Shown in pieces: positions 8,681-30,209 of a stretch of DNA of 64,000 nucleotides. The stretch covers positions 558,001 through 622,000 of the forward strand of contig CATNEN010000002.1 in the NCBI GenBank assembly GCA_950097015.1, in the 5' to 3' direction. Below the pieces are notes generated by a model. It ran no database searches. It was not told the DNA's origin and saw only the letters and a program-made list of their open reading frames with translations. This stretch comes from Macrostomum hystrix (taxonomy: Eukaryota; Animalia; Platyhelminthes). A program made the translations under genes and the position numbers. Numbering within the stretch: position 1 is the stretch's first letter; every line of letters begins with the position of its first letter.

Positions 8681-8723
8681 CGGATTTTCAATAGTAATGT
8701 TGTTATTGGGAAATTATTTAAAC

Positions 8724-9704: not shown

Positions 9705-10588
9705 TTAAAAATCACTATCCGTTTTTCCATTTAGTCACATTATTTTTTAATAATTTCATCTCTTTTGGCAGTGGCTTTTTAAATAAGGAATAGCACAAAC
9801 AATAAAATCTACAAAGCTGGTTTAGCACATATCTCTTCCAACTTTGTTTGGCTACACATTTCAAAATAGTTTTATTACAATTTGTAGATATTTAACCTGC
9901 GTGCTGCTTTTTGTGTGTGTTGTAGGTGTGACATCATCTGAGTTACATACATTGAAAATAAATTGACGAGACAGGTTATGGATTAAATAAATTTCAAAAA
10001 AAGTTTTCTTGGATTTCAGATTTTCTTTTGAAAATGAAAGGCTGCTTACTTTTTACGATACGTAGATAATAAAGTGCTAAGAAATATAGTGTGATAATCA
10101 TTTGAATAAAATATGTTTCTGATATTTGTCACTAGACTTACTATTATTGTAATTATAATAATAATTATTATTATTAATCTACTTAATAATTTTCTTTCAG
10201 TCACTGAAAATAATTCATGAATAAGTATGGCCGTCTCAAACGGAGGCTTAAATTATTTCGAGTCAAGCAATTCAAGCGAGTCATTTTATTCTTCTGATAG
10301 ATATGGTGAGAATTATCATTATAGTTTTTATTTGATCGCAAACTATGTTCAAGTTTCCGAAATAATTTCAGAAATAAACGTATTTGAAAAGTCGCTACGG
10401 TTATTAGAAAAACAAATATTGCAAATCACTGCATAAATTGAATGCCGATTTGTGTTTTATATAAAGAATTTATAAATTTAGGAATATTCTCTGACTGAAA
10501 TTTAATGATATAAGCAAGCTTTCTCAAATTCGTATTCACCTGCCAAATCGGGAAAATTAATTTATATAGGACTACAGTAACTGAAAAT

Positions 10589-13500
10589 TTGGGTGCTTTT
10601 AATTGGTTAGATACTAAACTATTACGAGGCTACATAAATTGCTTCCTTATCCTTTTAATTCTATTACGAGGCTACAAACTTCCTTTCTTATCCATTAAAT
10701 TTGCAGGAATCCCATTCCGATCTTCCATCATATCAGCTGCACACGATCATGTCCTTGAAGTGCTGCGTTTTATTCCGACAGTTCAGTGCGATCCGTTTGA
10801 ATTTCTTCATGTGACTAAAGAAGCCGTTCGACAAGCGCTTGAAATACGACTCGACTCTTCTGATGGTCAGTCTATTCGCGCACAACTCAAGCTCAACGTT
10901 CGCATGATCAGGCTAGCTGCAATTTAGATGTTTTGCCTGTTCATACCGAAATCAAGTATGTCGCGCACCACTTGGTATGTCTGAATGCCATATGTGAGTT
11001 TGAAAACTGGTGGATGCAGCAATTCACTGAACTTGAGCGCAAAATTGATACTTACAATTCCAATGGTAGTGGCTGGGTCGTTAATGGTCTGAATCACTTG
11101 GATCTGTGCAGTACTCTATCTGATCGGATTCGTTACTATTCCGGTAGATGCAGCGAATTTAATTTGCCTATTGAGCTACTCAACAAGAAGGCTCTCATCA
11201 ACCCTCCCAGTAATGGAAATGACTGTTTCCGTTTTGCCTGCTTGGCCTATCTTCATCGCGATGATCCTGCAGTGAAAAAATCTGGTCATAGATTATCAAC
11301 TTACAAAAACTGGGAGGCAGAAATTGATTTAACAGGCATTAATTTCCCCATCTCAATTAGCGACCTCGATGAAGTCGAGCAGAGAAACGCTGAAATATGT
11401 TTTACCGTTTTAACATGGGAGAATTCGAAGCCTTCAGTGATTCGTCAACCTAGCACTGTAATTAGCAACATCGCGAAATATTGTTCTACTTATGTTAGTC
11501 CAGCCATGTAATCTTCGCAAGGACTCATCCGATATCGACATTGGTGATAATATATGTGACAATCTTGGCCACTGGTGTGCTGTTAGCAGCCTTGATAGGC
11601 TCTTCAATAGCAAACTAGGCTTTCGGAATCGAAAGTGGTGTGAGCGATGTTTGAGTAATTTTCGTACTGAAATTGATCTTCACTCTCACCAGGTGCATTG
11701 CAATCTTCAACAATCGACATCCATCAAGGAGAATATGCCAGAGCCAGAAAGCTTCATGCGCTTCACATCCTGGGAAAAGACGCTGAGTCCTCCTTTTGTT
11801 GTCTACGCCGACTTCGAGGCATTTAATGTCCCAACTGCTTCAGTTGATGATTATGATACATCAGCAATCATCAGGCTGACTGAGCACGTGCCCGCTGCTG
11901 CTGGCTACATCACAATCGCCCGAGAGGGGATTAGTCAGTTGTGTAGGCCTAGTGAGGAGGTAGCACTCTTTTGTGATTCTGATGCACACACCTGTGTCAA
12001 AGAATTCTTGATGTCACTAGAAAAGCTGGCTAGGAAAGTTTATGGTTGGAATAAAGAGTTCAGCCACAAACCTGCACTCAAGCATAATGAAGACATTCGA
12101 AAATTCCACGAATCTGTGTGCTGCCACTATTGTGGAGAAGTTATTTCATCTTCTAGTGAGAAGCACTGGGACCACGATCACTTGACTGGCGCATTCCGCG
12201 GCGCTGCCTGCAGCTCGTGTAACAAGCTAGCTAGACTTAAGCGTCGCTTTCTACCAATTGTCATGCATAACTTGCGTAACTATGACCTGCACCTCATCTT
12301 CTCTACCGCCCTTGGCAACATGCCTGGCTGGAAAATCAGCGTCATCCCACAAACAGCCGAGGCATACCTATCAATGCGAGTTGAGTTCAAAATCGATTAG
12401 TATGAAAAGGATGGCAGGATGATCCCACTGAGCTTCACACTTCAGTTTATTGATAGCTTCCTGTTTCTACACAGTAGCATTGCACAGCTTATTGCGAATT
12501 TGTCGGAAGATGAATGCAAAGTGACGTCTCGGATGCAGGAGCATTACCCAAATGTGAGCGATGAAGTCCTTTTTTCAAAAGGTGTATTCCCATATGACTA
12601 TCTATCTGGTAGTCATGTACTCTATGATACACAACTGCCTAGCCGAGAGCATTTTTTTAATCGATTAAACAACTGCGAATGCAGCACAAATGATTATGTG
12701 CATGTTCAAAGAGCGTGGCGCGAATTCGATGTAGCCAATTTGCGTCACTACATGCTCTGTTACCTTGAGTTAGATGTCCGTCAACTTGCGGATATTTTTG
12801 AAAATTTCCGTCGACTCAGCCTCCGAGAAGATGGTCTGGATCCGGTTCATTTTGTTTCAACACCGGGGCTTTCGTTTGCTTCAGCAATTAAGTCGCTTTC
12901 TGGCATTGCAAAAGTAGGCATCCAGCTTTTGAGCGACAATGAAATGTATCGGACCTTCGAGCGAGGAATCCGTGGTGGCATGTGCTTTGTCAACGTCCAT
13001 CATGTTCGAGCGAGTGCGACTGACATCACTGAAGCCGAAACTGATAAACAACCAACCAAAAGTTTGCTAGCAATCGATGCGAACAATCTATATGGCCATG
13101 CTCTCACAATGCCACTCCCCGTCAGAGACTTCCGTTGGCTCAGTGAGGGGGAAGTCATCGTCTGGACGGAAGAGAGATTTTTGTGCCTGGATGAAAATGG
13201 TCCCGTTGGCTATCTTGTTGAGGCCGACCTTCACTATCCCATAGAGATTCATGATTACACTGCTGATCTGCCGTTTGCACCCGAAAGGCAAAAACCTAGT
13301 TTCGATGAATTCCCGCCGCACATGAAGCACCTATGGAATTTGTTGCATCAAGAAAATCAACAGCAGCACCAGCAGCAGCACCAGCAGCAAAGACAACAGC
13401 AGCAACAACATGAACCCGCTAAATCAAGTAACTGTGGGAAGGAATATTGTGGTGTTGAAAAACTACTCCTGACCTGCAAGAACAAACTGGCCTACGTGCT

Positions 13501-14542
13501 GCACTCTTCTGCGCTAAAGTTCTATCTGGCACATGGCTTAAAGTTGACTAAAGTGCACAGAATGATTGAGTTCCGCCAAGAGCCAGTTTTTGCCTCATAC
13601 ATCAACAAGAATAGTGAGAAGCGATCGAATGCAAAGAATGCATTCGAAAAAGATTTCTACATATTCAAGAACAACAGTGTATTTGGCAAGGTAATGGAAA
13701 ATGTACGCAAGCGACGTGACATTAGAATTATCAATTCAACCGACAAAGCCAGGATCTATGCTGCCAATCCAAATTTAAAGTCCTTCACAATAGTTACAGA
13801 AAATCTAAGCATATTTGAGCTACAGAGGACAGAAGTCACTCTGGATCGTCCAATTCAAATGGGACAATGCGTCCTGGACCTATCAAAGATCGTTATGTAC
13901 GAGCTGCTCTACGACAAGTTGAAGCCATTACTTGAGCGTGATGGTGGGTGTGTTCGTGTCTGTGGCGGGGACACTGATTCGTTTTTTCTCTGCCTGGAAA
14001 ACATCGATGCTCAAAAGGAAGCTCTGCCTTTAATGGCTTTTCATGATCTGCTTGACACGTCCAACTTCCCAAAGGATGATGTACTTCACTCCGATCGCTT
14101 GAAGGCTAGGCTGGGATGTATTAAGGATGAGTCTACCGGTGTACTGAATGAAGAATGGGTCCTGCTGCGACCAAAATTGTATTCCTTCTTGACGACCAAG
14201 TCATCAGCCGACAAGAAGAAGGCGAAGGGCATTCAAGCATGCGTTGTCAAGCGGACTTTAACCCATGAAGACTAATTGCGAGTTTACAAGGACTCAACAC
14301 AGCTGTCACTCACTGTCCGTCGCATTGGAAGCATCAATCACCGATTGTTTACACTCAAACAGCAGAAGCTGGCTCTAAGCATCTGGGAGGATAAACGAGC
14401 CTGGATAGGTCCAAACTCAAGCCTCCCTTTCGGACACATTCGGCTTTTGCAACTGCAGGAGCAATGCGTTCTAGATGAAGAATCCCAGCTGACTGTTGAA
14501 CTCAATGAAAGGCCAAGGAAGCGAATGCTGTTACGACCTTAG
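10589..14542 (+). pseudogene. pPolB: Protein-primed family B DNA polymerase (pPolB), disrupted
   Basis: Motifs YADFE, EndoVII/HNH-like CxxC..WDHDHLTGAFRGAACSSCN, HNLRNYD, FIDS, KGVFPYDY, RGG, DANNLYG, NNSVFGK, DTDS, RPKLY, KAKG. Frameshifts near 10925 and 11490-11510; in-frame stops at 12398-12400 and 14273-14275. True start uncertain. Confidence 0.95.
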
Positions 14543-15357
14543 TCAGGTTGCTGCGACAACTGTCTTTTAATGGTCACTAGAAGTTATTAGTAGTTGATCT
14601 TTTTTGTGAGCATTTCTGTTTAATGAAGAGCAAATCGAATAAGAATAATTTGAATTCTACCGTTAAATCACAGCTTTGCTTTAAAGATGATTACTTCTAG
14701 TGGCCAGTCTTGTTTTTGTTTGACAGCATTTGTTGACAATTAGACTGTGCACAGCAGGACTAGTGCTTGTATTCTAACAGCCGTTATTGCTATCACTATA
14801 TTCTTTATTAATTCAGCTACCAATTATCTGCTTCTAATTAGTTTTGCATTGCAGCAAATTCAGCAACGAGAACTATTTTCATAGCTGACTATGAACTTTC
14901 TTTACAGTCTGGTAATATTTGTATTTTTATGGTTCTCATACAACTAATTTTATTGGCTGGTGGTGGTTGTGATCTATCTTTGATCATTTTGTTTAATTCG
15001 TTTTGTATGCTGCTTCGAATTTATATTTTGAGCGTAGCATATTTTGCTGTTATTTCTGGTGAATGATTTACTCATGCGATGCGATGCTTTGTTTCTCTGT
15101 TTGGTCTTTATTTTAACTTTCCATTTATTTCACAAAATGTTTATTTCCTTATGCATCATGTGTGTGTGTACTTATTTTCAATTACATCCAGCGCATCACG
15201 TTTGCCCGTCAAATGTAAAAAGCGTTGTTAATATCAGTCTAAAACCAGATTTTTTCGTGCAAAATAAATCAGACGGTTGAAGGCTTGAGGCATTTCATAT
15301 CAGCAAACATCCAAACGGGTTTAAATATGTCATTGATTTCTTAGTTTATTTATTTAT

Positions 15358-15724
15358 TTATTTGCGTACAGCCGTCAGCAAGCCTGCTAGTAAGGATAGG
15401 TCCGATTGTAGCATATATTCTGACTTTGCCCCGCTGAGCACAAATGAGCCATTGTGAAAAAGCATGCATTTACAGTATTCGAGCTGACACACTAATGCAG
15501 AAAAGCTTTCAGGTTCATATCTAGCATTCGGTAGCACATCATTGAGGCTTGTCAAGCATTGGGGGTTAGGCAAGTCAATCTTTCCATGTGCACTAATAGT
15601 TTTAATTCGTACACAAATGGACTGATGAGGCAGCAGTTGAGCAGGCACTCTGCGATGCAGCATAGCCACGAAGCGACGGGCAGCCCTGACTGAGTCCGAG
15701 TAGCTCCGGGCGCCACAGATGCTC
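15358..15724 (-). pseudogene. TBP-like gene, 3' part (codons 70-191)
   Basis: SICGARSYSDSVRAARRF..VRIKTISAHGKI..ARYEPESFSAL..MLFHNGSFVLSGAKS aligns with TBP VCTGAKSEEQSRLAARKY..FKIQNMVGS..SSYEPELFPGL..LIFVSGKVVLTGAK. Confidence 0.8.
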
Positions 15725-15732
15725 GGTTCTCT

Positions 15733-15793
15733 GTGGAAGCGTGCTGGGCCCATAACCCAGAGGTCCGTGGATCGAAACCACGCTCTGCTACCA
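15733..15793 (+). other. 61-nt DNA copy of the 3' part of initiator tRNA-Met including CCA (captured RT primer)
   Basis: GTGGAAGCGTGCTGGGCCCATAACCCAGAGGTCCGTGGATCGAAACCACGCTCTGCTACCA has the CAT anticodon and iMet-type GATCGAAA T-loop. First ~14 nt are absent; it lies 2 nt from the LTR end. Confidence 0.93.
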
Positions 15794-15795
15794 CT

Positions 15796-16046
15796 TGTGG
15801 CTCTTAGCCAAAACAAATTAAGCTAAGGCGGTGAACTTGTATTTCTCTTAGCAGGGTTAAGAAGGGGAGCCTTGGCCCCCGTGGTCGGCTTTATTTAATT
15901 GAGCTGGTACAGTTAATCTATGGGAAAAAGGGAAGGCTAGTATCCTAGTATTCTTGGTGGAACAAGTGGGGTTGTCTATGGAAATAAAAGAAAGTTAGAG
16001 TCGTAACTAAGTCTGAAATAAAAGTTCGTTTTAGACGCTACAAACA
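15796..16046 (-). repeat. Gypsy LTR (~250 bp)
   Basis: Starts TG directly after the PPT (alternatively at 16042), contains AATAAA, ends ...GCCACA, followed by AG and the PBS-like TGGTAGCAGAG. Confidence 0.8.
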
Positions 16047-16054
16047 CTCCCCCC

Positions 16055-17761
16055 TCAACGAGTAAGAACAGTTACATTGTCATTAAAATGGACGCGTTTT
16101 ATGGGGCGTTGTTGCACTTGAAAAACTGGGCTTATAACAGGGTTTGAATTGGTCATTGAGCGCGTCTGGGGTGCAGGATCTGGCAGACGTGCCGGTTTGA
16201 TGCGTTCGATTGATACCACTTGAGGTTTGCCCTTGATATCCAGGGTCATTGTGTCAGCGGAACGGTGGACGACCTTGAAAGGGCCCTGATATGGTGCTTC
16301 CAATGGTTTTCTCACGCGATCTAATCGAAGCCAAGCAAATTCACAGGTTGATAGGTCGGATGGAAGGTGAACTGGTCGATGCTGCGTCCGTGGCAGTCGG
16401 TACGGGAAGAATAAACTGTGAAGGCTTTGTGCGATTTTTCGATTGTTGGAATCGTCAGTAACGACTGGCGGAACAAGTGGTTGTTCGCCGGTTACGGTAG
16501 AAAAGGGAGAGTTACCAGTGTCATCCGGATGAATGCGCAGACCAAAAAGAACGACATTCAGTTGAGATAGCCATGAACGACCTCGTGCGCGAAGACTGGC
16601 TTTGAGAGAGCGATGAGAGCGTTCTATCATTCCGTTAGCTTTCGGATTGTAAGCTGAGGTGCGGATGTGGTGAACACCGAGAAGGGTCACCAGGTCGGCC
16701 ATCAGCTCTGAGCGAAACTGTGTCCCTTGATCAGTAACCAGGGTTAATGGTGGTCCAAAGCGACAGACCCAATGGTCGACAAAAGCACGTGCGACTGCAG
16801 CAGCCGAAATGGTTTGCAGCGGAACGGCTTCAATCCAGCGAGTAAATGAATCTATTACGGTAAGAAGGTAGCGGGGCTGCGGTGTTGATAAGTCGTCGGG
16901 CTCCGGAGGTGGAAGTGGTCCCACTAAATCCATGTGGACAGTCGTAAAACGCTGTGTGGGGCACGGTAGGAAATGAAGTGGGCGTTGAATGTGGCGCCCA
17001 ACTTTGGCGGCTTGGCACTGGAGACATGAAGCTGTCCAATTCTGTACGTCGGATTTCATACATGGCCAAAAAAAACGATGGGCAACTAGGCGTAGTGTGG
17101 CCTTGACTCCAGCATGTGAAATTTCGTGAAGAGCTAGGACGATCTGCCGACGTAGACTCTCCGGAACGAAAGGGCGAGGATTGGGTTGTGACGTCTCGCA
17201 GTAGAGTGGACAGTCAAGTAGACCAATGTCAAAAGGACTAAACTGGTCACCAGTTATTCCCATTTCTTTTTGTGCTCGCGCGATTGCCGGGAGGTCGGCA
17301 GGTAGTTGAATGATTGGGTTGTCTGCGTCTTCAATTACATTGACGGCGTATGTATCGGTGACATCGCGGGACAGAGTGTCAGCAACGACGTTTTTGGTGC
17401 CCGGGATATGTACAATTTCCGTGACGTATTCCGTGATGGTGGATAATTGGCGTTGCTGTCGATCCGAGAGGCGTTCTTTGGTACTATGGAACGCGCCTAT
17501 CAGTGGTTTGTGGTCGCAAAACACAGTTGTCGGATGACCATGAATGAGATGGCGCCAGGTTTTTACTGCAGCGAACACAGCCAGGAGCTCACGGTCGAAG
17601 GCGCTGTATGAGCATTCGGTAGTTGTTAGCTTACGTGAGAAAAACGCTATCGGTGAGGAGTTTCCTTCAACTACCTGATGAAGACTGGCACCAATCGCAA
17701 AAGAACTGGCGTCGGACGTTATGGTGAAAGTAGCTGTAGGATCAGGAAAGGCGAGGGTAAC
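16055..17761 (-). pseudogene. pol: Gypsy pol, RNase H C-part and integrase
   Basis: ORF 16055-17578: CDHKPL, LHEISH..CLQC, HMDLVGP, TDQGTQF, NGMIERSHR, APYQGPF. Confidence 0.93.
17414..17761. repeat. 348-bp direct repeat (second copy 21554-21901) flanking the LINE insertion
   Basis: AATTTCCGTGACG...GCGAGGGTAAC appears identical on both sides of 17762-21553. Confidence 0.95.
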
Positions 17762-20700
17762 TTGACTTACTTGACTTAGCGGCAGGGGGCCTCCATGACG
17801 GACGCAGCGAGGAGGCGGCTGTTGCCGCCCATATCGCTAACCCCTGGCAGCCAGACGGCCTCCAGCGAGGCGGTGCCGCTCAGGGTGGTCCGTCGGTCGG
17901 TTCCGCCGCGCGATCTTCCTCGCCATAGGCTGGGAAGAAATCAGCTCGGCCGGTATCCCGGAGGAAGTGGGCGAGCTGAGGGATGTTCTCGGGCGAGCAG
18001 GCTTCGGCAAGAGTCGGTGCCGGCCCGAGGTGTTTTAGCCTAGCCCGGGTGAAGGCCGGGCAGTGGCAAATGAAATGCTCGGCGTTTTCACGGCCGGAGC
18101 AGCAGAAAGGACACGTTTCCTCAGGCACGTGGCCTTGGAGGTAGCGGTGTCTGGTGAAGCAGCCATGTCCCGAAAGGGCCATGGTGACTGCTCTCAGGTC
18201 TCTGCGGTTTAGCCTGAGTAAGGCCTTACGCAGGTTACTAGAGGGGGTTGGCACCGCAGCCCTGGACTGGCGACAGTTCAGGGTGCTGGACCACCTCCTC
18301 CGGTGCTGGGTCTCCATCCAGTGGTTGATGCTGGAGTTGACAACGGAGGCGGGGATCGGGGATTCCGGGCCCGGGCCCATCAGGGAGCTGGCTGCTCCAG
18401 CCTTTGCAAGCTCGTCCGCCATCTCATTCCCTGTGAGCCCGGCGTGCCCAGGGATCCACATCAGCTCCACCTTGTTAGACTGCGCCAAACCGTTTAACTG
18501 GGTGTTGCAGTCCAAGGTGGTTCTGGAGCGAGAGGTGCAGCGACTGAGGGCCTTGAGGGCTGCTTGACTGTCGGAGTGAAAAAAGATCCTCCGACCAGCC
18601 AGCTGCCTCTGGCGCAGCTCAGCCGCACAGAAGCTGATGGCGAGCATTTCGTTTTGGAAAACGCTTGAGCTCTTGCCACAGTGTTGGGAGTGGGTCCAGA
18701 GGACCTCGCCACCCGAGGCGACGCACACCCCGAATCCCGATTTACCGTTCATCAGGGAGCCGTCAGTGTAACAGTGGACTGCGGGGTCATCCCAGCAGTC
18801 CTTTACCTCATTACGAGGGAAGATGCTGACTTTGTACCTGTGGCTCCGGAGTAAAGTGGCCGGGGCCCCGTCCGAAAGGATGGTGAGCCCTCCGCACTCG
18901 CCCAGAGTTTTCAGGCAGAGGTCAGAGTGGGGCAGAAGGGAGCGCTTCGAGAAGGCTCGCGAATTCTGGAAGGATACACCCGCATCAAGGAGACGACGGG
19001 TGGACTTTGCCGCTTCCCCCTTAACAAAAATTGTCAATGGGTGTAGCGTTGAGGAAAGCGTTCATGCCTTCAAAGGGAGTGGAGGGTGGGGCGCCCAGCG
19101 TCATGCGACAGGCTCTGCCCTGCACCCTATAAAGCGCCTCCAGGTTTTTCTGGATGCTCATGGCACTGGCCCAGATGAGGCCAGCGTAAGCGACTGACGG
19201 TCTAATGATCGCCGTGTAAATCCACCAAAGGTTTTTGGGGGTTAGCCCCCAAGTGGTGCCCACGGCTCGCCTGACTTGCGCCAGAATGGCCAGGGCCCTC
19301 TTGGCCTTTGTGGTAATGTGCGGGGTCCAGTTAAGCCTATGGTCTAGCAGGATACCAAGGCACCGGACCTGCTTTTCCATGGCAATATTCTTGCCATAGA
19401 GAGTCAGAGGCTCAATGGTCCAGCGCAGCCTGCTGGTAAACATAACCGCAACGGTCTTGGACTCAGAGAGTCGGAGCCCGCATTGGTCCGCCCAGCGCAC
19501 CGCCCTGTTGATAAAGCCCTGAATGAGGTCCCTGGTGGTTTCCGCCGAGGGGCCCGCGCAGATGGCGGTCACATCGTCGGCATATCCCACCTTCAGGACT
19601 GGGTCAGGCCGAGTGCTTTTTAGCAGCTCATCCATGACGAGATTCCACAGCAGTGGGGTGAGGACGCCACCTTGGGGCCCTCCTTTTAGGACAGGTGCCG
19701 AGAGCACCCTGCCTTCGAGGTGGGCCACCACGTGGCGATTCCGGATCATGTACATGACCCAACGGACGAGGTGGGGGTGAGTGGCCCTGGAAACCAGGGC
19801 CTTCTCAAAGGCTTCGAAAATAACGTTATCGAAGGCCCCCTCAATATCAAGGAAAACAGCCAGGGCAAAACCGCTGCCCAGCACTGCCTTCTCGAGAGTC
19901 TCCACAATGCAGTGGAGGGCGCTCTCCGTGGACCGGCCCGCCCGAAAGGCGTGCTGGTTTGGTGAGAGCGGGGCCCGCCCTAGCTCTACAGTAAGAAGGC
20001 GCCAGAGCACCAGTCTTTCCATGAGCTTGAGGCAGGTGGAAGTCAAGCTTATCGGGCGATAAGACTTGACCGAGCGATAGTCGCCTTTGGCGGGCTTCGG
20101 GATGAAGACGACCCGGGCTTCATGCCACCGCGCTGGTACGTAGCCCAGCACGATGCAGGCCCGTAGAAGTCTGCAGAGGAGATGGAGGAAGCGGCCATTT
20201 TTAACCGCTTCATGCAGAAAGGCCGGATATATACCATCTGGCCCAGGTGCTTTAAAAGGATTGAATGACTTAGCCGCGCGAACGATGCGGTCATTCGTAA
20301 CGAGTGACTGAGCCAGGCCCTGACCTCCACGCGAGTGGTCGTCTGGGCCGAAGTGCGCCGGTACACTCGGGAAGAAATGCCCTAGCATAAGCTCGAGCGT
20401 TTCCTCCGGGCGCTCAGTGATCGAGCCGTCCGGCTTTTTAATCGATGAGAGCTTGGAGAAGCGGTCGTTGGTGAGCGCCTTTACCACGCGGGCCGTGGGC
20501 CGCGAGCCCTCAAGCCCTTCGCAGTATTGTCGCCACTTGTCCGCTTTTGCCCTTCTGACCCGGCCCTTAAACTCATGGATGGCGCGAGTATAGGCCTCTT
20601 TGTCATCAGGGTCGTGCGAGGTTTTCAGCTTCCTCTGGAGAGCCTTAGCTCGGCGTCTTAGGACTCCGAGCTCGGGGTTCCACCAGGGGGCCGATTTTTT

Positions 20701-21553
20701 GCCTTTGTAGGCTTTGAGCGGGCAAGCCATTTCGTAGGCCTCTGTGATGGCGCCGCCCAGCAGGGCAGCCACTCCATCCAGGTCCTGCGTGGTTTCCATG
20801 GCCATGGAGGGGTCAGAATCCCGAAGGCCCTCATGCAGCTTTTGGCTGAACGCGGGCCAGTCGGTATTTCTGACATTACGCCTCCAAATAGGCTTTTGCT
20901 TCTTATCGGGGGTGCCGATGTTGAAACGGATGAAACGGTGGTCCGAGAGCGAGCTTTCGGTCTCCCACACCTCCCACCCCAGCACCCTTGGGAGGATGCC
21001 GGGTGAGGCCAGGGTGACGTCAAGCACCTCAGCCCACCGCCCATTGTCGAAAGTGGGCGTGTTGCCCACATTGCAGAAGTTTAGAGGCGTGCCGCTGACG
21101 AAGGCCAGGAGCTCTTCGCCGCGGTCATTGATTTTTGAGCTACCCCAGTGGGTGTGATGCGAGTTTACATCTCCCGCGAGGAGCAGCTCGAAGTTTCGTG
21201 CCCTGGCGAATTCACAGAGGGCGACGAGGGTATCGCTAACCACGGGGGCGTCGCCTGCCAGGTAGGCGGATGCCACGAGGGTCAACTTGTTAGGCACAAT
21301 GTGTGCAGATTGGATGACGCAGATGTCCCCGTTAGAGAGATCGGGTCTCATCCACGCATTTAAGGCTTTTGCGGCATAGATCAGTGATCTAGGGCGGACA
21401 GAGTCTGCCATGCAGAAGCAGTCATAGCCAGCAGGAATGTTGCTTGGCTTGTTCTTTGATAGCCAGGGCTCCTGCACAAGTACAAGGCCCGGCATCATGC
21501 GCTCTGTCGTGCGCATCAGATTGACTGATGCTGCCACGCAGTGCTGGGTGTTA
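17762..21553 (-). mobile_element. Non-LTR retrotransposon (LOA/I-group-like), ORF2 plus 3' UTR, 5'-truncated at the APE start
   Basis: APE (QEP, GDVN, DVTL, SDH), RT (FLDIEGAFD, GPQGG, YADD), RNase H (YTDGS, SDSQ, WIPGH, GNEMAD), C-terminal CCHC. Tail (TAAGTCAAG)x2. Confidence 0.92.
17880..21552 (-). pseudogene. LINE ORF2 (APE-RT-RNase H-CCHC) with one +1 frameshift
   Basis: ORFs 19021-21537 and 17880-19037 join if one T is removed from the T run near 19026-19030 (IDNF-VKGE). Confidence 0.9.
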
Positions 21554-23200
21554 AATTTCCGTGACGTATTCCGTGATGGTGGATAATTGGCGTTGCTGTC
21601 GATCCGAGAGGCGTTCTTTGGTACTATGGAACGCGCCTATCAGTGGTTTGTGGTCGCAAAACACAGTTGTCGGATGACCATGAATGAGATGGCGCCAGGT
21701 TTTTACTGCAGCGAACACAGCCAGGAGCTCACGGTCGAAGGCGCTGTATGAGCATTCGGTAGTTGTTAGCTTACGTGAGAAAAACGCTATCGGTGAGGAG
21801 TTTCCTTCAACTACCTGATGAAGACTGGCACCAATCGCAAAAGAACTGGCGTCGGACGTTATGGTGAAAGTAGCTGTAGGATCAGGAAAGGCGAGGGTAA
21901 CAGCGGAGGATAAACTATCCTTAAGTTTCTGGAAAGCTGCATCGTGGTGAGCAGTCCACTCGTAGGAGTCATCACTCAATGATCGAAGAGGTTGAATAAT
22001 GTGGGCGTAGTTTGGAATGTGACGTTGATAGAAACCAAACATACCCAGTATTCTCTGTAGACTCTTGAAATCGCGCGGAGGTGAGAGTTTGCGAAGTGCG
22101 TCTAGACGAGATGGAATTGGTTGAATGCCTTGGGCAGAGATTAGGTGACCGAGGAATTCAATTTCCTTTTGAAAAAATTGACATTTTTCAGGATTTACTC
22201 GCAAGCCTTCATGGCGCAGTCTCTGTAAAACGGATTCCACATCCCTGTGGTGCTCCTCCTCCGATTTGCTGTGGATCAGGACGTCGTCAACATACGTGAT
22301 TGCACAATCCAGACCACGGAAAAGGGAGTCGATGAACCGTTGAAATGTACTGCCGGAGTTCCGCAGGCCGAATGGCATCCTCGTGTATTCAAAGGATCCA
22401 AAAGGGGTGCAAATCGCGGTTTTGGCAATGTCCTCCTCAGCCATAGGAATGAAGTGGTATGCCTTGACAAGATCCAGTTTGCTGAAAACATTGCTGCCTC
22501 GTAGGTGGTGATGAAAATGTCGAAGATGAGGCAACGGATATCGGTCGGGAGTTGTTACGCTGTTAAGGGCGCGGTAGTCTCCACACGGTCACCAAGATCC
22601 GTCGGGCTTCTTGACCATGTGGAGCGGTGAGGCCCACGGACTAGAAGACGGGCGAACGATGCCCATTTGCAGGAGCTTGTCAAATTCAGCTTTGGCAACA
22701 GCATACTTAGCAGGAGACAGTGGGCGAGGTTTGCAGAATACTGGTTTTCCAGTGGTGATGATTTGATGAGTCACTGGCGTTGCAGGAAGGACTGAGTAAT
22801 CGGGCGAAGCCGTTAGATCAGGAAACGGCAATAGAACGTGACTAACTGGTGCGGCAGCAACAACATGAACAGAGGGAGGTATAAAACCTTTGGTGTGTTC
22901 AAAACACAGTGGTGCGGAAAGGGAAGTGAGTGGGTCGCGGATGCATCTGGAACCCATGTCGATAAGCAGTTCGTATTGAGTCAAAAAATCCGAGCCGAGT
23001 ATAGGGGCCGTGTTAGCAATAATGAAATTGACACGAAACATACGCCGCAGGCCATTAATGGAGAATGTGACCGACGATTGACCATGCAGATGAATTTCGT
23101 GACCGCTGAGTCCTCGGAGGCGGACGTTACAGGGAGATATGAGGTTGAGCGGAACGAAACTTGGAGGGAGCAGAGATCTGGAAAGAGCAGAGCAGAGCAG
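21554..23200 (-). pseudogene. pol: Gypsy pol, truncated protease, RT and RNase H N-part
   Basis: Starts after the protease catalytic motif; ILGSDFL, SPWASP, stop TGA at 22589-22591 in place of R of DGSWR, LDLVKAY, YVDD. Confidence 0.92.
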
Positions 23201-23409
23201 AGTTGACCGGTGGGATAGAGCAGCAGAGTGACTCCCGGATCCCGCATCCTCTTGATGAGCACTCGGGGCCAAACGGGTCGGTAGATGACATGAGCCATGC
23301 TGAGAGCCAGTTCCCGTAGAGGAAGTTGGGCGCCCCTGCCTCCAGCCAGTCTCAGATCCACGCCACCGACCAGGTTGGTCACTCTCAGAGTTGACAAAGG
23401 TGTACTCAT
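23201..23409 (-). pseudogene. TBP-like gene, 5' part (codons 1-70)
   Basis: LRVTNLVGGVDL..LPLRELALSMAHVIYRPVWPRVLIKRMRDPGVTLLLYPTGQL aligns with TBP [52 protein letters not shown]. Confidence 0.8.
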
Positions 23410-23944
23410 TTCCGATGTTTTTTCTGCTTGCGGTAGTGTAGTTGCTGATTTCGTTGAAAGTGCTGATGCCTTTTGAATGGTGCTGACACACCTCGCTTCT
23501 TAAGCTTATGGAAAACTTGGGCTTCAACCAGCTGTAGTACATTAATGTATTTTTTAATGCGCAGCCGGTATTAGATTGTTCGACTAAAGGTCCTCCCAGG
23601 TCCTCAAGGTTGTACACCTGTTGGCCAAGAAGTTCAGTTAGAAAAGCGGACTTCCTCGCTCCGCTAGTCCAAGTTGGGCCGTAAGAAATTTTGGGAATGT
23701 CAGTTTTTAATTTCTTGTAAGATCGGGTTCCATCGTTCCATTTGAGCCGGTGCAGATTCCTTGAGAGTTTTCTGTAGTGCACTCGCATCTCATGCGAGAT
23801 CATTTCCCATGCATATGGTGAGGAATAAAGATGATGAGTGATATTGTAACTGCCTGCTCGGACTTCAACAACCGCCAGCTCCTTCACAATGAAACCACTA
23901 CTTGATCTCTCACATGGAAAGCCTTGGAAGTCAATATAGTTCAT
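23410..23944 (-). CDS. Polinton accessory protein, DEDD/DnaQ-like exonuclease-fold candidate (3' end uncertain)
   Basis: MNYIDFQGF...FIVKELAV...SPYAW...LHRLKWNDG...VYNLEDLG...CALKN; resembles uncharacterised Maverick ORFs as I recall them. No stop before the TBP-like start. Confidence 0.5.
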
Positions 23945-23987
23945 TATTGGCAATATCGAATATCGAAAGAAAATACAGACAGCCGAT

Positions 23988-24692
23988 TTAATTTCCTTTC
24001 TTAAATAGTTTCTTTCTGCCCAGCTGTAACCAGGCTCTCTCGCTCCCAAGTCCCTTGACTGTATGATGAGCACAGTCTAGAGCTTCCGCCTCTAGAGAGG
24101 CTGCTGGCTTGGAAATAAGCTTTCTCACTGATTTCCCTATCGCTGAAGCTGGAATGTTTAGCTTGCTGTCTTGAAGCAATAAAACAAACTCACTCCAGCC
24201 CACCGGCTCGCTGTCGCATTTTGAATCCCTCACTGCAGTATGAAAGAGATCCATGATGTTTGAGGATGGTATTCTCTGCCCAGCCATTTGCACCTCGCCG
24301 TTTTCGAACACCTGGATGAGGGAGGGATTATCAGATAGGATGGCCCATAGACTGCGAGCCCTGGTTTTGAATTTCTGGGGCACGGACTGGACAATCTTTT
24401 CAGCCCAGCTGCTCGGCAGCATCTCTGCTTTCTGTTTCTTTGCCGCTTCACTCTCTCCTGCTACACTCTCCTTTCCAACTTGCTTGTGCTTGGACAACAA
24501 ACTTTTCATAGCGTTCTGGTACATGGCTGTCTTCACATTGTCTGGGCAATCGTCGGCATACAATATATCATCACATTTAATCTGTGCCTGCTTTACCGCA
24601 ATGTCTCCTGCAGACTCATTGGGTTTCACATTAATCATTAGCATGTCATACTCAGACTTGGGAATCAGAACCATCTCAGAGAACTTGTTCAT
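23988..24692 (-). CDS. Conserved uncharacterised Polinton protein (PZ-like, tentative)
   Basis: MVLIP..Y start and NGEV..G..IPSSNIMDL...PVGW.EF...L...NIP pattern typical of Maverick core ORFs; position within the morphogenesis cluster. Confidence 0.6.
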   Translation of the reverse strand: MNKFSEMVLIPKSEYDMLMINVKPNESAGDIAVKQAQIKCDDILYADDCPDNVKTAMYQNAMKSLLSKHKQVGKESVAGESEAAKKQKAEMLPSSWAEKIVQSVPQKFKTRARSLWAILSDNPSLIQVFENGEVQMAGQRIPSSNIMDLFHTAVRDSKCDSEPVGWSEFVLLLQDSKLNIPASAIGKSVRKLISKPAASLEAEALDCAHHTVKGLGSERAWLQLGRKKLFKKGN

Positions 24693-24999
24693 TTTCCTTC
24701 TTTCTTCTATGCACAAGCTTCAGCAGAGTGGGGAGAATTTTTATGAAATTATGATTTAGCAAGTCAGCTTCTTTTCTTTGAGCTGGGATTTTTCGAATAA
24801 TCTGCTTGGACTTTGCCAGCTCAGCCTTTTCAATAAGAGAGAAAGTCAGGTTGTTTTCCAATAGGTTGTAACAGGCTTCAACAAGGAATTTTCGCACTTC
24901 TTTCGGACCGTGCTTGATTAGCAAGCGCTTGAAGCTGACAGTGTATTTCGCTGATGCAAGAATTGCAAAGATGCTTTCATGAAAACAAAGCGTGTCCAT
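24676..24999 (-). CDS. Small conserved Polinton protein (PW-like, tentative)
   Basis: 107 aa, EACYNLLENNL..L.K.K..IRK pattern; lies next to the ATPase. Confidence 0.6.
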   Translation of the reverse strand: MDTLCFHESIFAILASAKYTVSFKRLLIKHGPKEVRKFLVEACYNLLENNLTFSLIEKAELAKSKQIIRKIPAQRKEADLLNHNFIKILPTLLKLVHRRKKENEQVL

Positions 25000-25038
25000 T
25001 GTTGAGTATAGATATGGAAAACAGCGTATTTGCCATTC

Positions 25039-25728
25039 TTAGGTATAAACCAGGTGGGGGCGCTGGTTGGGCAGGATCCGCGCTCGCACTCGCAGCTCAT
25101 CGGGAGTGGATGGGTGGAAATCCAGAAGCAGGTAAGCTCCCCTGCCTTGAGCGGTCACATGCTTAAACACAGACAGCAGAAAGCCGGGCTTCTCTGCAAA
25201 GCACTGCCTGCCCAGTGCTGCAATCTGCAGCTGGTCTCTGGGGTTCTTCATGATGACAAAGTACATCGCATTCAGACTCATCGTTCGCAACTCTTTTCCT
25301 TTAAAAAATACATTCTGGGTCAGCATTACCAGAAAGCAGGGTAAGTTATGAGCGATTCCGGTGAATACATTTCGCATCGCAGCAGAGCTAGAAGTCTCAT
25401 CAATCAAATCATCAAAAACAATCAGGTCATTGGGTCTTAGAGCCGCCTCAATGTTGCTGGGGAATCCCTGCTGCATGTGCACTCCCAGGCTGCTCAGCTC
25501 AGAGTGCACTGTCTGCGAAACCCCATAGTACCACAGGACTCTCTCAGGCATCGTATCAAACATAACATCCCTGTACTGAATTAGCTGCTTCACGAAGGTT
25601 GTCTTGCCAGCATTGGTTGGCCCGCTGACAATCATGCAGCTTCCCTGCCGCAGGCGGGCATCATAGCAGGTTCTATTCGCACTGGTTTCCATAGTCGGCT
25701 TTAGCCAATTTGTAGAGCTGACTTTCAT
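25039..25728 (-). CDS. FtsK/HerA (A32-like) packaging ATPase
   Basis: Walker A GPTNAGKT, Walker B LIVFDD, LTQN, RTMSLN..Y, KNPRD; intact. Confidence 0.93.
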   Translation of the reverse strand: MKVSSTNWLKPTMETSANRTCYDARLRQGSCMIVSGPTNAGKTTFVKQLIQYRDVMFDTMPERVLWYYGVSQTVHSELSSLGVHMQQGFPSNIEAALRPNDLIVFDDLIDETSSSAAMRNVFTGIAHNLPCFLVMLTQNVFFKGKELRTMSLNAMYFVIMKNPRDQLQIAALGRQCFAEKPGFLLSVFKHVTAQGRGAYLLLDFHPSTPDELRVRARILPNQRPHLVYT

Positions 25729-26240
25729 AACTTTCTCTTTCTTAGGCTGGCTTCGAACTGCCGAAGCATTCTGTCATTCAGGTGGCTCTTTTCCTTTGAA
25801 TGCAGTTGTCGCAGAACCCACTTAAATGACCGTTTGAATTGAAACTTCTGATAAGTAAAATAAAGACAGAAGAGACCGCATTTGACAGAGTCACAGCTTT
25901 GAATTCGATCCACATTGCTGCTCAAACGAAGCGGGGAACCCAAGGCTACTTGCAGTAAATCATGAATAATCATTAAAGTTTTCGAGTCCCAGCCAAGGGA
26001 ATTGAAAAGCTCCACAGAATTCCCGTAAGTGACGTCGCAAACCACCCAGTGGCCTGACAAGGAGCTGTGATGCAACAAAAGGAAAATAAATTTGCTCTTA
26101 TATGTTTTCTCATTCAGGTAACTCCGCAAATGAAATTCTAATTCAGCATTATTAGAACTATTCAAATTTAGAGACACTATAAAAGCGTTTCTAATGGGCA
26201 AAAAGCTTCTGGCAAGTTTAAACATCTGAAAAGTGTTCAT
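25725..26240 (-). CDS. Adenain-like cysteine protease
   Basis: GHW, FNSLG (D to N versus the usual FDS.G), Q..DS..CG; ATGA overlap with the ATPase. Confidence 0.85.
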   Translation of the reverse strand: MNTFQMFKLARSFLPIRNAFIVSLNLNSSNNAELEFHLRSYLNEKTYKSKFIFLLLHHSSLSGHWVVCDVTYGNSVELFNSLGWDSKTLMIIHDLLQVALGSPLRLSSNVDRIQSCDSVKCGLFCLYFTYQKFQFKRSFKWVLRQLHSKEKSHLNDRMLRQFEASLRKRKL

Positions 26241-26245
26241 AATTA

Positions 26246-26729
26246 TTATGAAAAATCTTGCAAAATTTCCCTATGCTTGGTGACTTCAATCAGAACCGAA
26301 ATCGGAACCGAATCTCCAGCCGCAGGTTTCCCTCTTTCTGTCCGTACCACAAGGCTGCTCCCTCGGGTGTGAGGTCGAACGCTAACACGGTGTTGTCGTT
26401 GGAGAAGATCTGATAGGGGATCCATGGGACCGAGTTGGTGGGGCTGGCAGACTGGCAGCTTTTCAGGTAGTGCAAGTACTCTCGCACAAATGAGTTGTTT
26501 TCGGGTGTGAATGCACCGTGGCACATGGTTTCCCCGCCTTTCTTTAGAGCTAGCTGGCTGAGGTTGAAGATCTAAAAATGGATCCCGCTTTTAGATCCAT
26601 GAATTCGATGGGTGCATTTGCAGCAATTGAGTTCACGGGGTGAATATCGACATAGGAGGATTTGTCAATGGCAGTCTGCAGCGCAGGAGCCTTGAACAAA
26701 TCGAGCCTTGGGTTGAATCCATAAGCCAT
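26246..26729 (-). pseudogene. Major capsid protein (double jelly-roll) remnant with large internal deletion
   Basis: N-terminal LDLFKAPALQTAIDKSSYVDIHPVN...PIEF (26729-26600) is joined to C-terminal ...AFDLTP...GNLRLEIRF and IEVTKHREILQDFS; only 484 bp remain. Confidence 0.85.
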
Positions 26730-26731
26730 TT

Positions 26732-27118
26732 CTACGACAAAGAGTCCAGCACGCGCTTCACCGTTTTCCTGCTGACTTTTCGTTTCCTCTTGCTTACCGT
26801 TTTGCCCTTTGCTTTGCTCTCTCCTTTCTTAGGTTTCTTTCTACCAGAATTTTTCCGTTTTCTTGATTTTTTCCCCTTCTTGCCATTTTGGCGAGGTGTC
26901 TTCTGTATTCTCTTTTTCCTAGAAACTTTAGCATTCAACTGTCTTCTTTTGCTAACGCTTTTGCCAGCCGAGGCCAACTGAGATGCATGTGCTGGTGAAG
27001 TTGCTGGAGGAGGTTGATATGTCATGATCCCTGGAAAACTTCCGCACCCATAGGGCGCAGATTTATCGCTTCCATTTCGAGTTCCAGAGTACTGCCGGAT
27101 CAGCTGCTGATAGTTCAT
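26732..27118 (-). CDS. Lys/Arg-rich putative core (DNA-condensing) protein
   Basis: 128 aa, highly basic C-terminal half, Gly-rich N-terminus; lies between the minor and major capsid genes. Confidence 0.65.
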   Translation of the reverse strand: MNYQQLIRQYSGTRNGSDKSAPYGCGSFPGIMTYQPPPATSPAHASQLASAGKSVSKRRQLNAKVSRKKRIQKTPRQNGKKGKKSRKRKNSGRKKPKKGESKAKGKTVSKRKRKVSRKTVKRVLDSLS

Positions 27119-27921
27119 CGAATAAGTTTCTCCTGGATCTGAATCGTGAGCAAAACAGGACTGCAGCTCTGAGCAGTCAGAGAGTGACCAAATGTATCCA
27201 GCAGTTGAATTCGAATGCTGTGTAGAAAATTTGCTTTCTGGATTGGGAAGAACAATGTTTTCTTAAACACTTTGCTGAAGTAGCAGCCCCATTCAGCATT
27301 AGAACTGATGTTCACAGTTCGCAGCAGGGAGTCCCAGTTGCAGCTTGTTGACTCAACAAGGCTGCAGTGCACATTGACCAGGTTGGTGGGCGGACAGCCG
27401 ATGCAACAGCTTGACACGTGGCGCCCAGGTGGGATTTTGATTGACTGGTTTCCAAATCCCAACCACTGCAGGATTTTGCTTGGAGGAAAATACAACTCTG
27501 CTCGTGCGGTATTGTTGTGCATCACTGTTCTTTGATTCTGAATTTCAAACTTTATCCCAAAATCTTTATTGCTGCGAGCCATCAGGCCCGATTCATCAGC
27601 CTCCATCTCAGACTCTCTATCGCTCATGGCATCAAAGAACAGTGACTCAGAGTTGACTAGTAGCTCGTTCAACCGCTCCACCAGCTCATCCACTCTGTCA
27701 AAGCGTCCGGGTTGAAGAACCAGGGCCTCATGCTCTCTTCCATCTGAGACTGTGAAGCAGTAAGGCTCGTCAACATTGAGCCATGCAGTAGGCAGATGGA
27801 TTTCAGCCAGACCTGCCTCATAATCCACATTTCGATCCAAGTATATAGGTGCAGACAGGCGAAAATTAAAGTCACTAGAAGAACCTTCTGCATGCTCACT
27901 GTTTATTACGATGCTGCTCAT
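27115..27921 (-). CDS. Minor capsid (penton-like) protein
   Basis: SSDF..RLSAPIYL...YEAGLAEI.LP..W.N start and LVNVHCSLV..IRIQL.D C-terminal pattern of Polinton mCP. Confidence 0.8.
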   Translation of the reverse strand: MSSIVINSEHAEGSSSDFNFRLSAPIYLDRNVDYEAGLAEIHLPTAWLNVDEPYCFTVSDGREHEALVLQPGRFDRVDELVERLNELLVNSESLFFDAMSDRESEMEADESGLMARSNKDFGIKFEIQNQRTVMHNNTARAELYFPPSKILQWLGFGNQSIKIPPGRHVSSCCIGCPPTNLVNVHCSLVESTSCNWDSLLRTVNISSNAEWGCYFSKVFKKTLFFPIQKANFLHSIRIQLLDTFGHSLTAQSCSPVLLTIQIQEKLIR

Positions 27922-27963
27922 TCCTCAAAATCAAAATATTAAAATATCGAATAACTTAGATGT

Positions 27964-29061
27964 CTATACCTTTCTTAAGTCCTTCTCATCCACCCAGCCA
28001 GTCGAGTTGTAGTCGGCCCACTTTACGAGATAGCGAATCTTTCCCTTCCGCTTCTCAGTCTTTAGAATCTTTTCAATCACATACAGCCGCTGGGAGTCTG
28101 GAACAGCTTGCAGCTCATGCTCATGAAAGAGGCCTCGAATATCTTCACCCTTCATGTCTCGAATCTGGTACATATACGGATAATGCTTTGGAGCTCTTGA
28201 CACTACAGTATACACTTCTTCACTCCAGTTAGCCATGTATCCCTTTCTGAAGAGTCTGGGAGCATTTGAAATTCGTACAGACTGGTTTTCACTGAACTTC
28301 GGTTTTCTCAGCTTCTTAACTGTCTCAATCGCTTTCCCATCGTAAAGATTCATCCAGATGTCAGTCTCATTTTCTTTGCAAACATTCATTGGTGTAGTCT
28401 TAATGCTTCTGTGGAATGTATTGTTATAGGACTTGACCAGTTTAGGTAGCACATCAAGCCATTGTAGAGTGCTGTTGTGAGTAAAATAACGCCACATCTT
28501 GCTTTTTAAAGTTCGATTCCATCTTTCTATTACGGCAGCTTTGTGCTCACTGTTTGTTGGAAACGCCAGAATCCCGCGGTCTATGCAGAACTGGCGAAAT
28601 ATTGTGTTAAGAAACTCCTTTCCCTGATCCGTGCGGACGGTGCGTGGCTGCCGCTTTGAGCTCTTCAGCATGCTCTCAAACGCTGATTGCACTTCTGCTG
28701 CGCTTTTAGACCTCAGAGCTCTGGCCATAGCGAATTTAGATAAAACATCTATACATGTAAGAATGTATTTATGCCCGCGATTATATTTGGCAAACGGAAT
28801 CATTTCCACCAGATCCAACTCCCACTGATCATCAATGGCTCTTACTATTATTGGCGCCCTTTGAAATCGAACTCTAGCCGGCTTATGTAGAGTATGCACT
28901 GGCTGCTGACTTAGCCATTGCTCAATCCCCTTAATCCCGATGTGATAATCTCTTTTTCTCAGTTCATGTTGAAGCTTTGAAGAACTGCAATAACTCGCTG
29001 GCTGATTCGGGTTAAAGTAAACTTTTTCCTTTTTCAGAAACAAGGAGGCTAAAATTTTCAT
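27964..29061 (-). CDS. Polinton rve-type DDE integrase with C-terminal chromodomain
   Basis: WELDL, IDVLSK, RTDQGKEF, VIERWNRTLK; YVIEKIL...YLVKW chromodomain; intact. Confidence 0.95.
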   Translation of the reverse strand: MKILASLFLKKEKVYFNPNQPASYCSSSKLQHELRKRDYHIGIKGIEQWLSQQPVHTLHKPARVRFQRAPIIVRAIDDQWELDLVEMIPFAKYNRGHKYILTCIDVLSKFAMARALRSKSAAEVQSAFESMLKSSKRQPRTVRTDQGKEFLNTIFRQFCIDRGILAFPTNSEHKAAVIERWNRTLKSKMWRYFTHNSTLQWLDVLPKLVKSYNNTFHRSIKTTPMNVCKENETDIWMNLYDGKAIETVKKLRKPKFSENQSVRISNAPRLFRKGYMANWSEEVYTVVSRAPKHYPYMYQIRDMKGEDIRGLFHEHELQAVPDSQRLYVIEKILKTEKRKGKIRYLVKWADYNSTGWVDEKDLRKV

Positions 29062-29169
29062 AATTTATTTATTCTTAAGATGTTGGAAACGCACAAGCAG
29101 CACATATTTTTTCAAAAATTAGAAAAAGTATGGATAAAAATGTTGCTTTTAGTGTCAGAGGGTCCGCAT

Positions 29170-29937: not shown

Positions 29938-30209
29938 GAAAAACTTAAACAGAATTAATTATCTCGTTTAAACAAAATTTCGGCTCTACGTGAATCAATC
30001 AATTTTTTGGTACTTATATAGACTAAACCATTGCCGCAAACATACAGCTATAGTAAAACATGGTCCGCGAGTTCCCACTAACCCACATTTTTTTACAAAT
30101 CAGCCCCGGAACTCCCCACCCCACCCCGGAACTCCCACGGCTTTCCCTGCGGCAGAGCACATCAATGCATTTACATCGGCTCCTATGTTCACTCACTAAC
30201 CCCAAGGTT
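29694..30209. repeat. 516-bp direct repeat (second copy 31995-32510) flanking the LINE 5' fragment; duplicates the PC4-like promoter and 5' end
   Basis: CCTTCACCTCAATG...CCCCAAGGTT appears identical on both sides of 30210-31994. Confidence 0.95.

What the first reader, a model, noticed from the sequence alone, without database searches (positions are those of the whole stretch)
15725..23200. Fossil reverse-transcription intermediate: tRNA-iMet-primed minus-strand Gypsy cDNA captured without integrase
Seen on the + strand: 8-nt filler, 61 nt of tRNA-iMet with CCA, 2 nt, a single LTR, PPT, then IN-RH-RT and a protease cut mid-domain. There is no gag, 5' LTR or TSD, and the target gene rejoins without loss. 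Known: normal provirus PBS copying stops at ~18 nt (m1A58), and Ty1 cDNA fragments can be captured at double-strand breaks. Inference: an incomplete minus-strand cDNA, still linked to its primer, was patched into a break and the primer RNA was copied up to the D-loop.
Basis: partly seen in the sequence, partly recalled or inferred. Interest (0 to 1): 0.75.

Follow-up and report, generated by a model that had tools for sequence, protein, structure and literature searches.

The report
Retrotransposon intermediate fossilised with primer tRNA
A piece of a retrotransposon, carrying a 61-base copy of the initiator tRNA that primes it, interrupts a gene of a large DNA transposon, and is likely an unfinished reverse-transcription product that break repair patched into the chromosome.

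Summary
Observation confirmed, with additions. The + strand reads: 8-nt filler, tRNA-iMet G15-A76 with CCA (61 nt), CT, one 251-bp LTR, PPT, IN-RH-RT, and a protease cut just after its catalytic motif. It splits a TBP-like gene of a Maverick/Polinton with no codons lost. Other copies lack the insertion. The stated refutation fails: the family primer site seen in run X4 is 15 nt, not 61, and contigs from two studies cross the tRNA junction. Best reading (0.8): an unfinished cDNA with its primer over-copied was captured by end joining. Both halves of this mechanism are known from the lab (Ty1 cDNA at breaks; HIV over-extended strong-stop DNA). The scan already found similar fossils on other DNA (e1-7808317 and two more), and I found three more loci in metagenomes. 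Untested extra: the anticodon's complement gives the first ATG after the LTR, in frame with the gene's 3' half, and that segment appears to be transcribed. Not shown: long-read support, a bridged right junction, the host tRNA gene. Interest 0.45.

The parts
8123..32824 (.). Maverick/Polinton-like DNA transposon that holds the target gene: 204-bp terminal inverted repeats, 6-bp target duplication, rve+chromo integrase, adenain-like protease, ATPase, polymerase-B-like ORFs
   Evidence: TIR, TSD; Pfam; protease weak, E 0.003; polymerase motifs read by eye
23201..23944 (-). 5' part of the interrupted TBP-like gene (it has a frame change near 23280 relative to P0121)
   Evidence: P0121 residues 1-241 in two frames; PF00352
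23180..23200 (-). 21-nt filler of repeated CTCTG units, likely copied from the first 20 nt of the insert
   Evidence: X4 record 21 leaves the window at 23179; 11 of 13 match; 23 of 2975 random contexts reach this; 8-nt exact match, 3.6% of random contexts
21554..23179 (-). Ty3/gypsy pol, 5' part: protease cut after the catalytic motif, RT (premature stop at 22589-22591), start of RNase H
17762..21553 (-). Nested 5'-truncated LINE (AP endonuclease, RT, RNase H; TAAG-repeat tail; frameshift near 19030), flanked by a 348-bp exact duplication (17414-17761 = 21554-21901)
   Evidence: (LINE contigs in 4 of 4 runs go on past 21554; X1 record 3 holds the Gypsy sequence without the LINE)
16056..17761 (-). 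Ty3/gypsy pol, 3' part: RNase H and integrase, to the stop codon
   Evidence: PF17917, PF17919, PF17921, PF00665
16047..16055 (-). Polypurine tract abutting the LTR
15796..16046 (-). Single 251-bp LTR, TG...CA; it holds no ATG on the element strand
   Evidence: (X4 contigs with other flanks leave at 15794 and 15796)
15794..15795 (+). 2-nt spacer between CCA and LTR, shared with the family's primer site
15733..15793 (+). tRNA-iMet copy, G15 to A76 including CCA (61 nt); the family primer site covers only 15779-15793
15725..15732 (+). 8-nt filler, no clear template
   Evidence: best match 4 nt, reached by 97% of random contexts; joint 15724 to 23201 in other copies
15358..15724 (-). 3' part of the TBP-like gene; open in frame from the anti-anticodon ATG at 15753 (131 aa)
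15293..15362 (-). Candidate poly(A) region: AATAAA at 15362 and 15354; one X1 contig ends at 15293 with 8 non-genomic T
   Evidence: the RNA nature of the runs is inferred

Best explanation
The insert has the order and polarity of a Ty3/gypsy minus-strand cDNA still joined to its tRNA-iMet primer, and it was likely patched into a double-strand break by end joining rather than by integrase. Shown: the PPT-LTR-spacer-tRNA order; both junctions lie away from the LTR ends; fillers at both junctions; an undamaged target; a 15-nt family primer site. Inferred steps: (1) minus-strand synthesis stopped, or was later trimmed, in the protease. (2) Plus-strand synthesis from the PPT copied the LTR and ran past m1A58 to G15, most likely by the element's own RT on an under-modified primer (I put 60:40 over a host polymerase). 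(3) Such a molecule cannot do the second strand transfer and has no integrase-ready ends. (4) A chromosome end in the TBP-like gene primed repeatedly on the single-stranded cDNA tail, leaving the 21-nt templated filler (polymerase-theta-like), and the tRNA end was joined with 8 nt of filler. (5) The LINE most likely inserted afterwards; its timing is not shown.
For: Family primer site 15 nt in X4, then unrelated sequence. Empty site with no loss in 4 X4 contigs and contiguous alignment to P0121. Family sequence runs on 636 nt past 23179, so the cut is specific to this copy (record 21). The CCA is present; that eukaryotic tRNA genes do not encode it is my own knowledge. Right filler templated from the insert end, 23 of 2975 controls; iterative priming is the published model for such inserts (PMC4032859, passages). 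tRNA junction in contigs of two studies. Precedent for each half: 40 of 56 Ty1 3'-LTR inserts at yeast breaks carry cDNA-only bases (PMC11372161, passages); over-extended plus strands P1 and P5, and loss of transfer or integration (PMC13191261, PMC8599865, passages). Over-long primer copies next to LTR-like or repeat ends in 4 of 6 metagenome hits, 3 independent loci.
Against: No substitution at A58, A37 or G26, so nothing marks an RNA template. The end at G15 is none of the published stops (58, 55, 54, 37, or the 5' end). The host tRNA gene was not seen, so the 5' limit rests on a tRNA gene from another organism (L001). No listed contig bridges the right junction or either LINE junction (the tables were cut, 1421 pieces not shown). 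X4 contigs differ from the window at 15433 and 15542 in all their depth, so this allele was not seen in the one run that looks like deep genomic DNA. The X2 bridging contig has 6 differences and 1 gap in the LTR and may be a mosaic of LTR copies there.
Confidence: 0.8

Rival explanations
1. DNA-only templated insertion. A one-LTR circle or tandem copy gave pol-PPT-LTR-PBS with the CCA, and repair synthesis then switched through the 12-15 nt of primer-site homology onto a genomic tRNA-iMet gene for 46 more bases. No RNA was copied.
For: No misincorporation at normally modified positions and no known stop site. The filler shows that template switching happened at this break.
Against: It needs a rare donor plus an exact second switch, while the primer is already covalently attached in the simpler model. 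Similar over-long copies lie inside LTR elements elsewhere (L004, L006), where RT read-through is the simple cause.
Confidence: 0.1
2. Remnant of an aberrant integrated element or tandem array. An earlier bad second-strand transfer made a subfamily with a long primer site; a tandem or circular form was inserted and later lost both ends.
For: Such LTR / long anti-tRNA / internal-fragment elements exist in other organisms (L004, L006). Contigs drop rare variants, so a rare subfamily is not excluded.
Against: The only primer-site contig listed in X4 is 15 nt (4 loose ends not shown). The target has lost no codon and has no LTR-terminal junction or clean TSD, which two later deletions would hardly give.
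Confidence: 0.06
3. A LINE reverse transcriptase primed at a nick in the target and copied the primer-linked cDNA, including the tRNA; the repeated filler would be slippage at initiation.
For: A LINE family with many copies is present and nested here. Tandem short repeats at the priming junction fit slippage (own knowledge).
Against: No clean target duplication, whereas the short LINE copy at 60501-60580 has a 13-bp one. No LINE tail at the priming junction.
Confidence: 0.03
4. Assembly artefact joining a tRNA, an LTR and a Maverick.
For: The right junction is not bridged in listed contigs and X4 does not show the allele.
Against: The left junction is in contigs of two studies, one with 0 differences over 150 nt. 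CCA, fillers and contiguous target halves are not what mis-assembly gives.
Confidence: 0.01

Closest known systems
Ty1 cDNA replication intermediates captured at induced double-strand breaks in yeast (PMC11372161, passages read)
   Same: Integrase-independent insertion of a retrotransposon fragment with the 3' LTR and bases found only in cDNA; end-joining junctions.
   Different: Natural, inherited, in an animal genome (closest protein relatives are labelled Macrostomum lignano); Ty3/gypsy; 3.3 kb; 61 nt of primer. The passages I saw do not say how much tRNA the yeast inserts carry; I did not open the supplements, which may bear on this.
Over-extended plus-strand strong-stop DNA of HIV-1, products P1 and P5 (PMC13191261, PMC8599865, passages read)
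   Same: Copying of the primer past m1A58, giving a product that cannot complete strand transfer or integrate.
   Different: Ends at G15, between P5 (position 37) and P1 (5' end); fixed in a chromosome together with its minus strand.
Earlier scan findings e1-7808317, e1-9032919, e1-9047610 (AI notes, unchecked)
   Same: LTR joined to an over-long primer copy (51 nt in one note, 39 nt in another); the first also without TSD and read as break capture.
   Different: This one keeps 3.3 kb of pol, has a proven empty site, a measured family primer site and a possible chimeric transcript; it lacks the modification marks reported in e1-9032919.
Cloned retroviral circles with tRNA between the LTRs, and the proposal that tRNA-derived SINEs arose from strong-stop DNA with its primer (both recalled; searches did not retrieve them)
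   Same: A primer tRNA copied into DNA next to an LTR end.
   Different: Not read here, so a lead only. The copy lacks positions 1-14 and so has an incomplete A box; no sign of spreading as a SINE.

Membership tests
Ty3/gypsy LTR retrotransposon (origin of the fragment) | pol order PR-RT-RH-IN | tested here: met
Ty3/gypsy LTR retrotransposon (origin of the fragment) | LTR with TG...CA ends, adjacent PPT, tRNA primer site in the family | tested here: met
Ty3/gypsy LTR retrotransposon (origin of the fragment) | clade placement against named reference elements | not tested
   no named references fetched; best relatives 66% identical and unnamed
Integrase-made provirus or solo LTR | both host junctions at LTR termini, with a 4-6 bp TSD | tested here: not met
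   junctions lie in the protease and in the tRNA; fillers; empty site 15724/23201
Integrase-made provirus or solo LTR | two LTRs and gag (full element) | tested here: not met
   one LTR in the window; pol starts inside the protease
Retrotransposon cDNA captured at a break | sequence arrangement found only in cDNA (PPT-LTR-primer) | tested here: met
Retrotransposon cDNA captured at a break | end-joining scars (filler or microhomology) with little target loss | tested here: met
Retrotransposon cDNA captured at a break | dependence on a break, on RT and on end-joining enzymes | not testable with these tools
   historical event
Over-extended plus-strand strong-stop product | primer copy passes position 58 and includes CCA | tested here: met
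   G15-A76; A58 at 15775
Over-extended plus-strand strong-stop product | ends at a described stop (55, 54, 37 or the 5' end) or shows errors at modified bases | tested here: not met
   ends at 15, no substitutions; trimming could hide the true end
Family with an inherited long primer site | family members carry the 61-nt match after the 5' LTR | tested here: not met
   15-nt match in X4; one run, contigs only
Maverick/Polinton (target) | TIRs, 6-bp TSD, retroviral-like integrase | tested here: met
Maverick/Polinton (target) | protein-primed polymerase B, ATPase, protease, capsid genes | tested here: inconclusive
   polymerase motifs by eye only (no Pfam hit), protease E 0.003, ATPase weak; major capsid not looked for

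The most novel reading that the evidence does not exclude
The captured primer built a new gene. The orphan LTR drives a polyadenylated transcript through the antisense tRNA, whose CAT anticodon reads as the first ATG (context GTTATGG), in frame with the last 117 codons of the TBP-like gene, giving a 131-aa half-TBP protein. The RNA also carries 61 nt antisense to initiator tRNA. Basis: no earlier ATG in the LTR; contigs matching the window allele with 0 differences over 15293-15688 (X1) and 15309-15673 (X8), one with a T8 tail, at several times the depth of the Gypsy interior and with no cover beyond, in 3 of 4 runs laid. The runs' RNA nature, start site and translation are unproven, and the frame has a 1-in-3 chance.
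Probability: 0.25. Interest if true: 0.7.

Novelty: new variant of a known kind. Interest (0 to 1): 0.45.

Why it matters
It is a natural, inherited record of two events known mainly from the bench: reverse transcriptase running past the m1A58 stop, and capture of unfinished retrotransposon cDNA at a break. The empty site and the family primer site are both in hand, so the reading is well constrained. With the three other loci found here and the scan's earlier cases, the ends of such copies could be collected to map in vivo RT stops and tRNA modifications in organisms where these were never measured. If the chimeric transcript is real, it shows a way to make a gene in which a tRNA anticodon supplies the start codon. 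It is one dead copy of a recurring accident, not a new system.

Tried and rejected
No whole genome is held, so full-length members, TSDs, host tRNA genes and other long-primer LTRs could not be counted. ARAGORN found 0 tRNAs in the window and Rfam only a chance snoRNA hit. X4 has no cover at 15730-15759; the host's own tRNA gene is missing there too and the tool drops human-like contigs, so this hole says nothing. The 25-nt pattern gave 0 hits in viral contigs. Of 6 metagenome hits, 2 (L001, L002) are ordinary tRNA genes, and L003 and L005 are the same locus. Three ORFs of L004 had no Pfam hit, so its interior is unclassified. The left filler has no template above chance. The 28-nt loose end of the X2 contig at 16021 is not in the window and is unexplained. 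Contig depth was not used as copy number. Paper searches for natural genomic cases and for the SINE-origin model found no direct description; the library lacks most subscription and older papers, so this is weak. One paper on Ty1 inserts was not held.
Full report
Anatomy. Pfam gives RNase H and integrase for 16058-17836 and RT plus RNase H for 21554-22588. Five full-length relatives (54-62% identical over the pol pieces) carry DTGA or DSGA two residues before the point where the window's protease begins, at 23179. There is a premature stop at 22589-91. The window holds no second LTR.

The tRNA. Counting back from the CCA, the copy spans G15 to A76, with the CAT anticodon at 15751-53 and A58 at 15775. 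A normal stop before A58 would leave 18 nt; the copy is 43 nt longer. It aligns to an ARAGORN-called tRNA-Met(CAT) gene from a metagenome locus (L001) at 94.6% over 56 nt, and its last 52 nt are identical to L003. It has no substitution at A58, A37 or G26. Its identity as initiator tRNA rests on hallmarks I know (U72, three G-C pairs in the anticodon stem, A54/A60). The host's own gene was not available.

First, 17762-21553 is a 5'-truncated LINE (AP endonuclease, RT, RNase H) between two identical 348-bp copies of Gypsy sequence, so the Gypsy fragment is about 3.3 kb. One X1 contig holds the Gypsy sequence without the LINE. Second, the family sequence in X4 leaves the window at 23179 and runs on for 636 nt (record 21), so 23180-23200 is a 21-nt filler. 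It repeats the first bases of the insert: best 13-mer match 11 of 13, reached by 23 of 2975 random contexts; a plainer test, longest exact match, gave 8 nt and 3.6%. Iterative annealing and extension is the published model for such templated inserts (PMC4032859, passages). Third, the target is a TBP-like gene inside a Maverick/Polinton-like element: 204-bp inverted repeats at 8123-8326 and 32622-32824, a 6-bp duplication, and an rve+chromo integrase. Its best relative, P0121, is labelled Macrostomum lignano (79%), so the host is probably a related flatworm.

Target site. P0121 residues 216-241 align to 23277-23200 and 242-358 to 15723-15373, so no codon is lost. Four X4 contigs join 15724 to 23201. 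Three of the first four filler bases equal 23201-04, so a tiny imperfect duplication is possible, but neither junction is at an LTR end, which integrase would need.

Of 14 runs listed (8 with half the words or more, one organism, two studies), I laid 5. Family primer site: in X4 one contig matches from 15779 into the LTR and has 81 unlike letters before it, so the family site is 15 nt. From the bin means its depth is about 876, the same order as the Gypsy interior (644-746); depth is not copy number, and 4 loose ends were not shown. Junctions: X2 record 8 spans 15316-16021 (6 differences and 1 gap; the five listed differences lie in the LTR), and X1 record 2 spans 15659-15808 with none. No listed contig bridges the right junction or the LINE junctions, and X4 does not show this allele at 15433 or 15542.

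Mechanism. In a chromosome, a primer site follows the 5' LTR and a PPT precedes the 3' LTR. Both around one LTR, with the primer extended far into the tRNA and CCA included, is the layout of a minus strand still joined to its primer. In HIV-1, plus-strand synthesis mostly stops before m1A58; minor products stop at 55, 54 or 37, unmodified primer is copied to its end, and products past 54 cannot transfer or integrate (PMC13191261, PMC8599865; passages only). In yeast, 40 of 56 Ty1 3'-LTR inserts at breaks carried cDNA-only bases (PMC11372161 and its preprint PMC10802722; passages only, supplements not opened). I therefore read this as a dead-end intermediate captured by end joining (0.8). The break, the enzyme that copied the tRNA and the RNA template are inferred. 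The clean copy and the end at G15 leave room for a DNA-template rival (0.1).

Generality. An exact 25-nt pattern (past the 18-nt limit, with CCA) hit 6 metagenome loci and 0 viral ones. Two are tRNA genes. L006 has 43 nt of primer between an LTR-like end and an 837-aa Pao-type pol ORF (PF05380, E 5e-48). L004 has about 66 nt, reaching position 10, beside one of two 86%-identical direct repeats. L003 and L005, one locus, have 52 nt at the centre of a long inverted repeat. L004 and L006 look like bad second-strand transfers, a different fate of the same over-run; that is my inference. The scan's notes hold three more cases in other genomes, which I did not check. The accident recurs, which supports the mechanism and lowers the novelty.

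Possible transcript. In X1, X2 and X8 the cover stops at 15293, 15316 and 15309, one contig ends in T8 downstream of AATAAA motifs (61-69 nt away, farther than usual), and nothing covers 14800-15113 or 23278-24200, while X4 covers both. These runs have no library on record; I take them for RNA from their size and this pattern. The first ATG after the LTR start is the complement of the anticodon, at 15753, opening 131 codons in frame with the gene's 3' half. Contigs cannot show strand, start or level, so this stays a hypothesis (0.25).

Verdict. It is a natural variant of known laboratory products, seen before in this scan on other DNA, here with unusually complete controls. Interest 0.45.

Noticed in passing
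window 17414-21901: LINE insertion flanked by a 348-bp exact duplication, whereas an 80-nt copy of the same LINE at 60501-60580 has an ordinary 13-bp duplication. Junctions not bridged in listed contigs.
   Followed up: partly
window 29694-32514: A second insertion in the same Maverick: 1.8 kb with a 435-aa ORF without Pfam hit, flanked by a 520-bp direct repeat (99.8%) that includes sub-terminal Maverick sequence. A second very long duplication or a pair of LTRs.
   Followed up: partly
window 8123-32824: Maverick/Polinton with TBP-like and PC4-like genes, both related to host transcription factors; it sits inside one unit of a tandem array.
   Followed up: partly
window 1-8125 and 32856-64000: Tandem array of about 13.0-13.1 kb units, 95-99% identical; content not examined.
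   Followed up: no
L003:628-1483 (same locus as L005): 52 nt of tRNA-iMet with CCA at the centre of an inverted repeat with arms of about 400 bp, 87% alike; possibly a fold-back product of reverse transcription.
   Followed up: partly
L004:726-1765: Small element with two direct repeats and about 66 nt of primer copy ending at position 10, next to G9, which is usually methylated (recalled).
   Followed up: partly
L006:531-3063: Pao-type element in which 43 nt of primer copy joins directly, in frame, to the RNase H-integrase part of pol.
   Followed up: partly
L001:956-1032 and L002: tRNA clusters with a tRNA-Met(CAT) gene followed by genomic CCA and a further tRNA-like sequence.
   Followed up: no
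window 16021 (run X2): The bridging contig leaves the LTR 25 nt before its end with 28 letters not found in the window; perhaps an LTR variant.
   Followed up: partly
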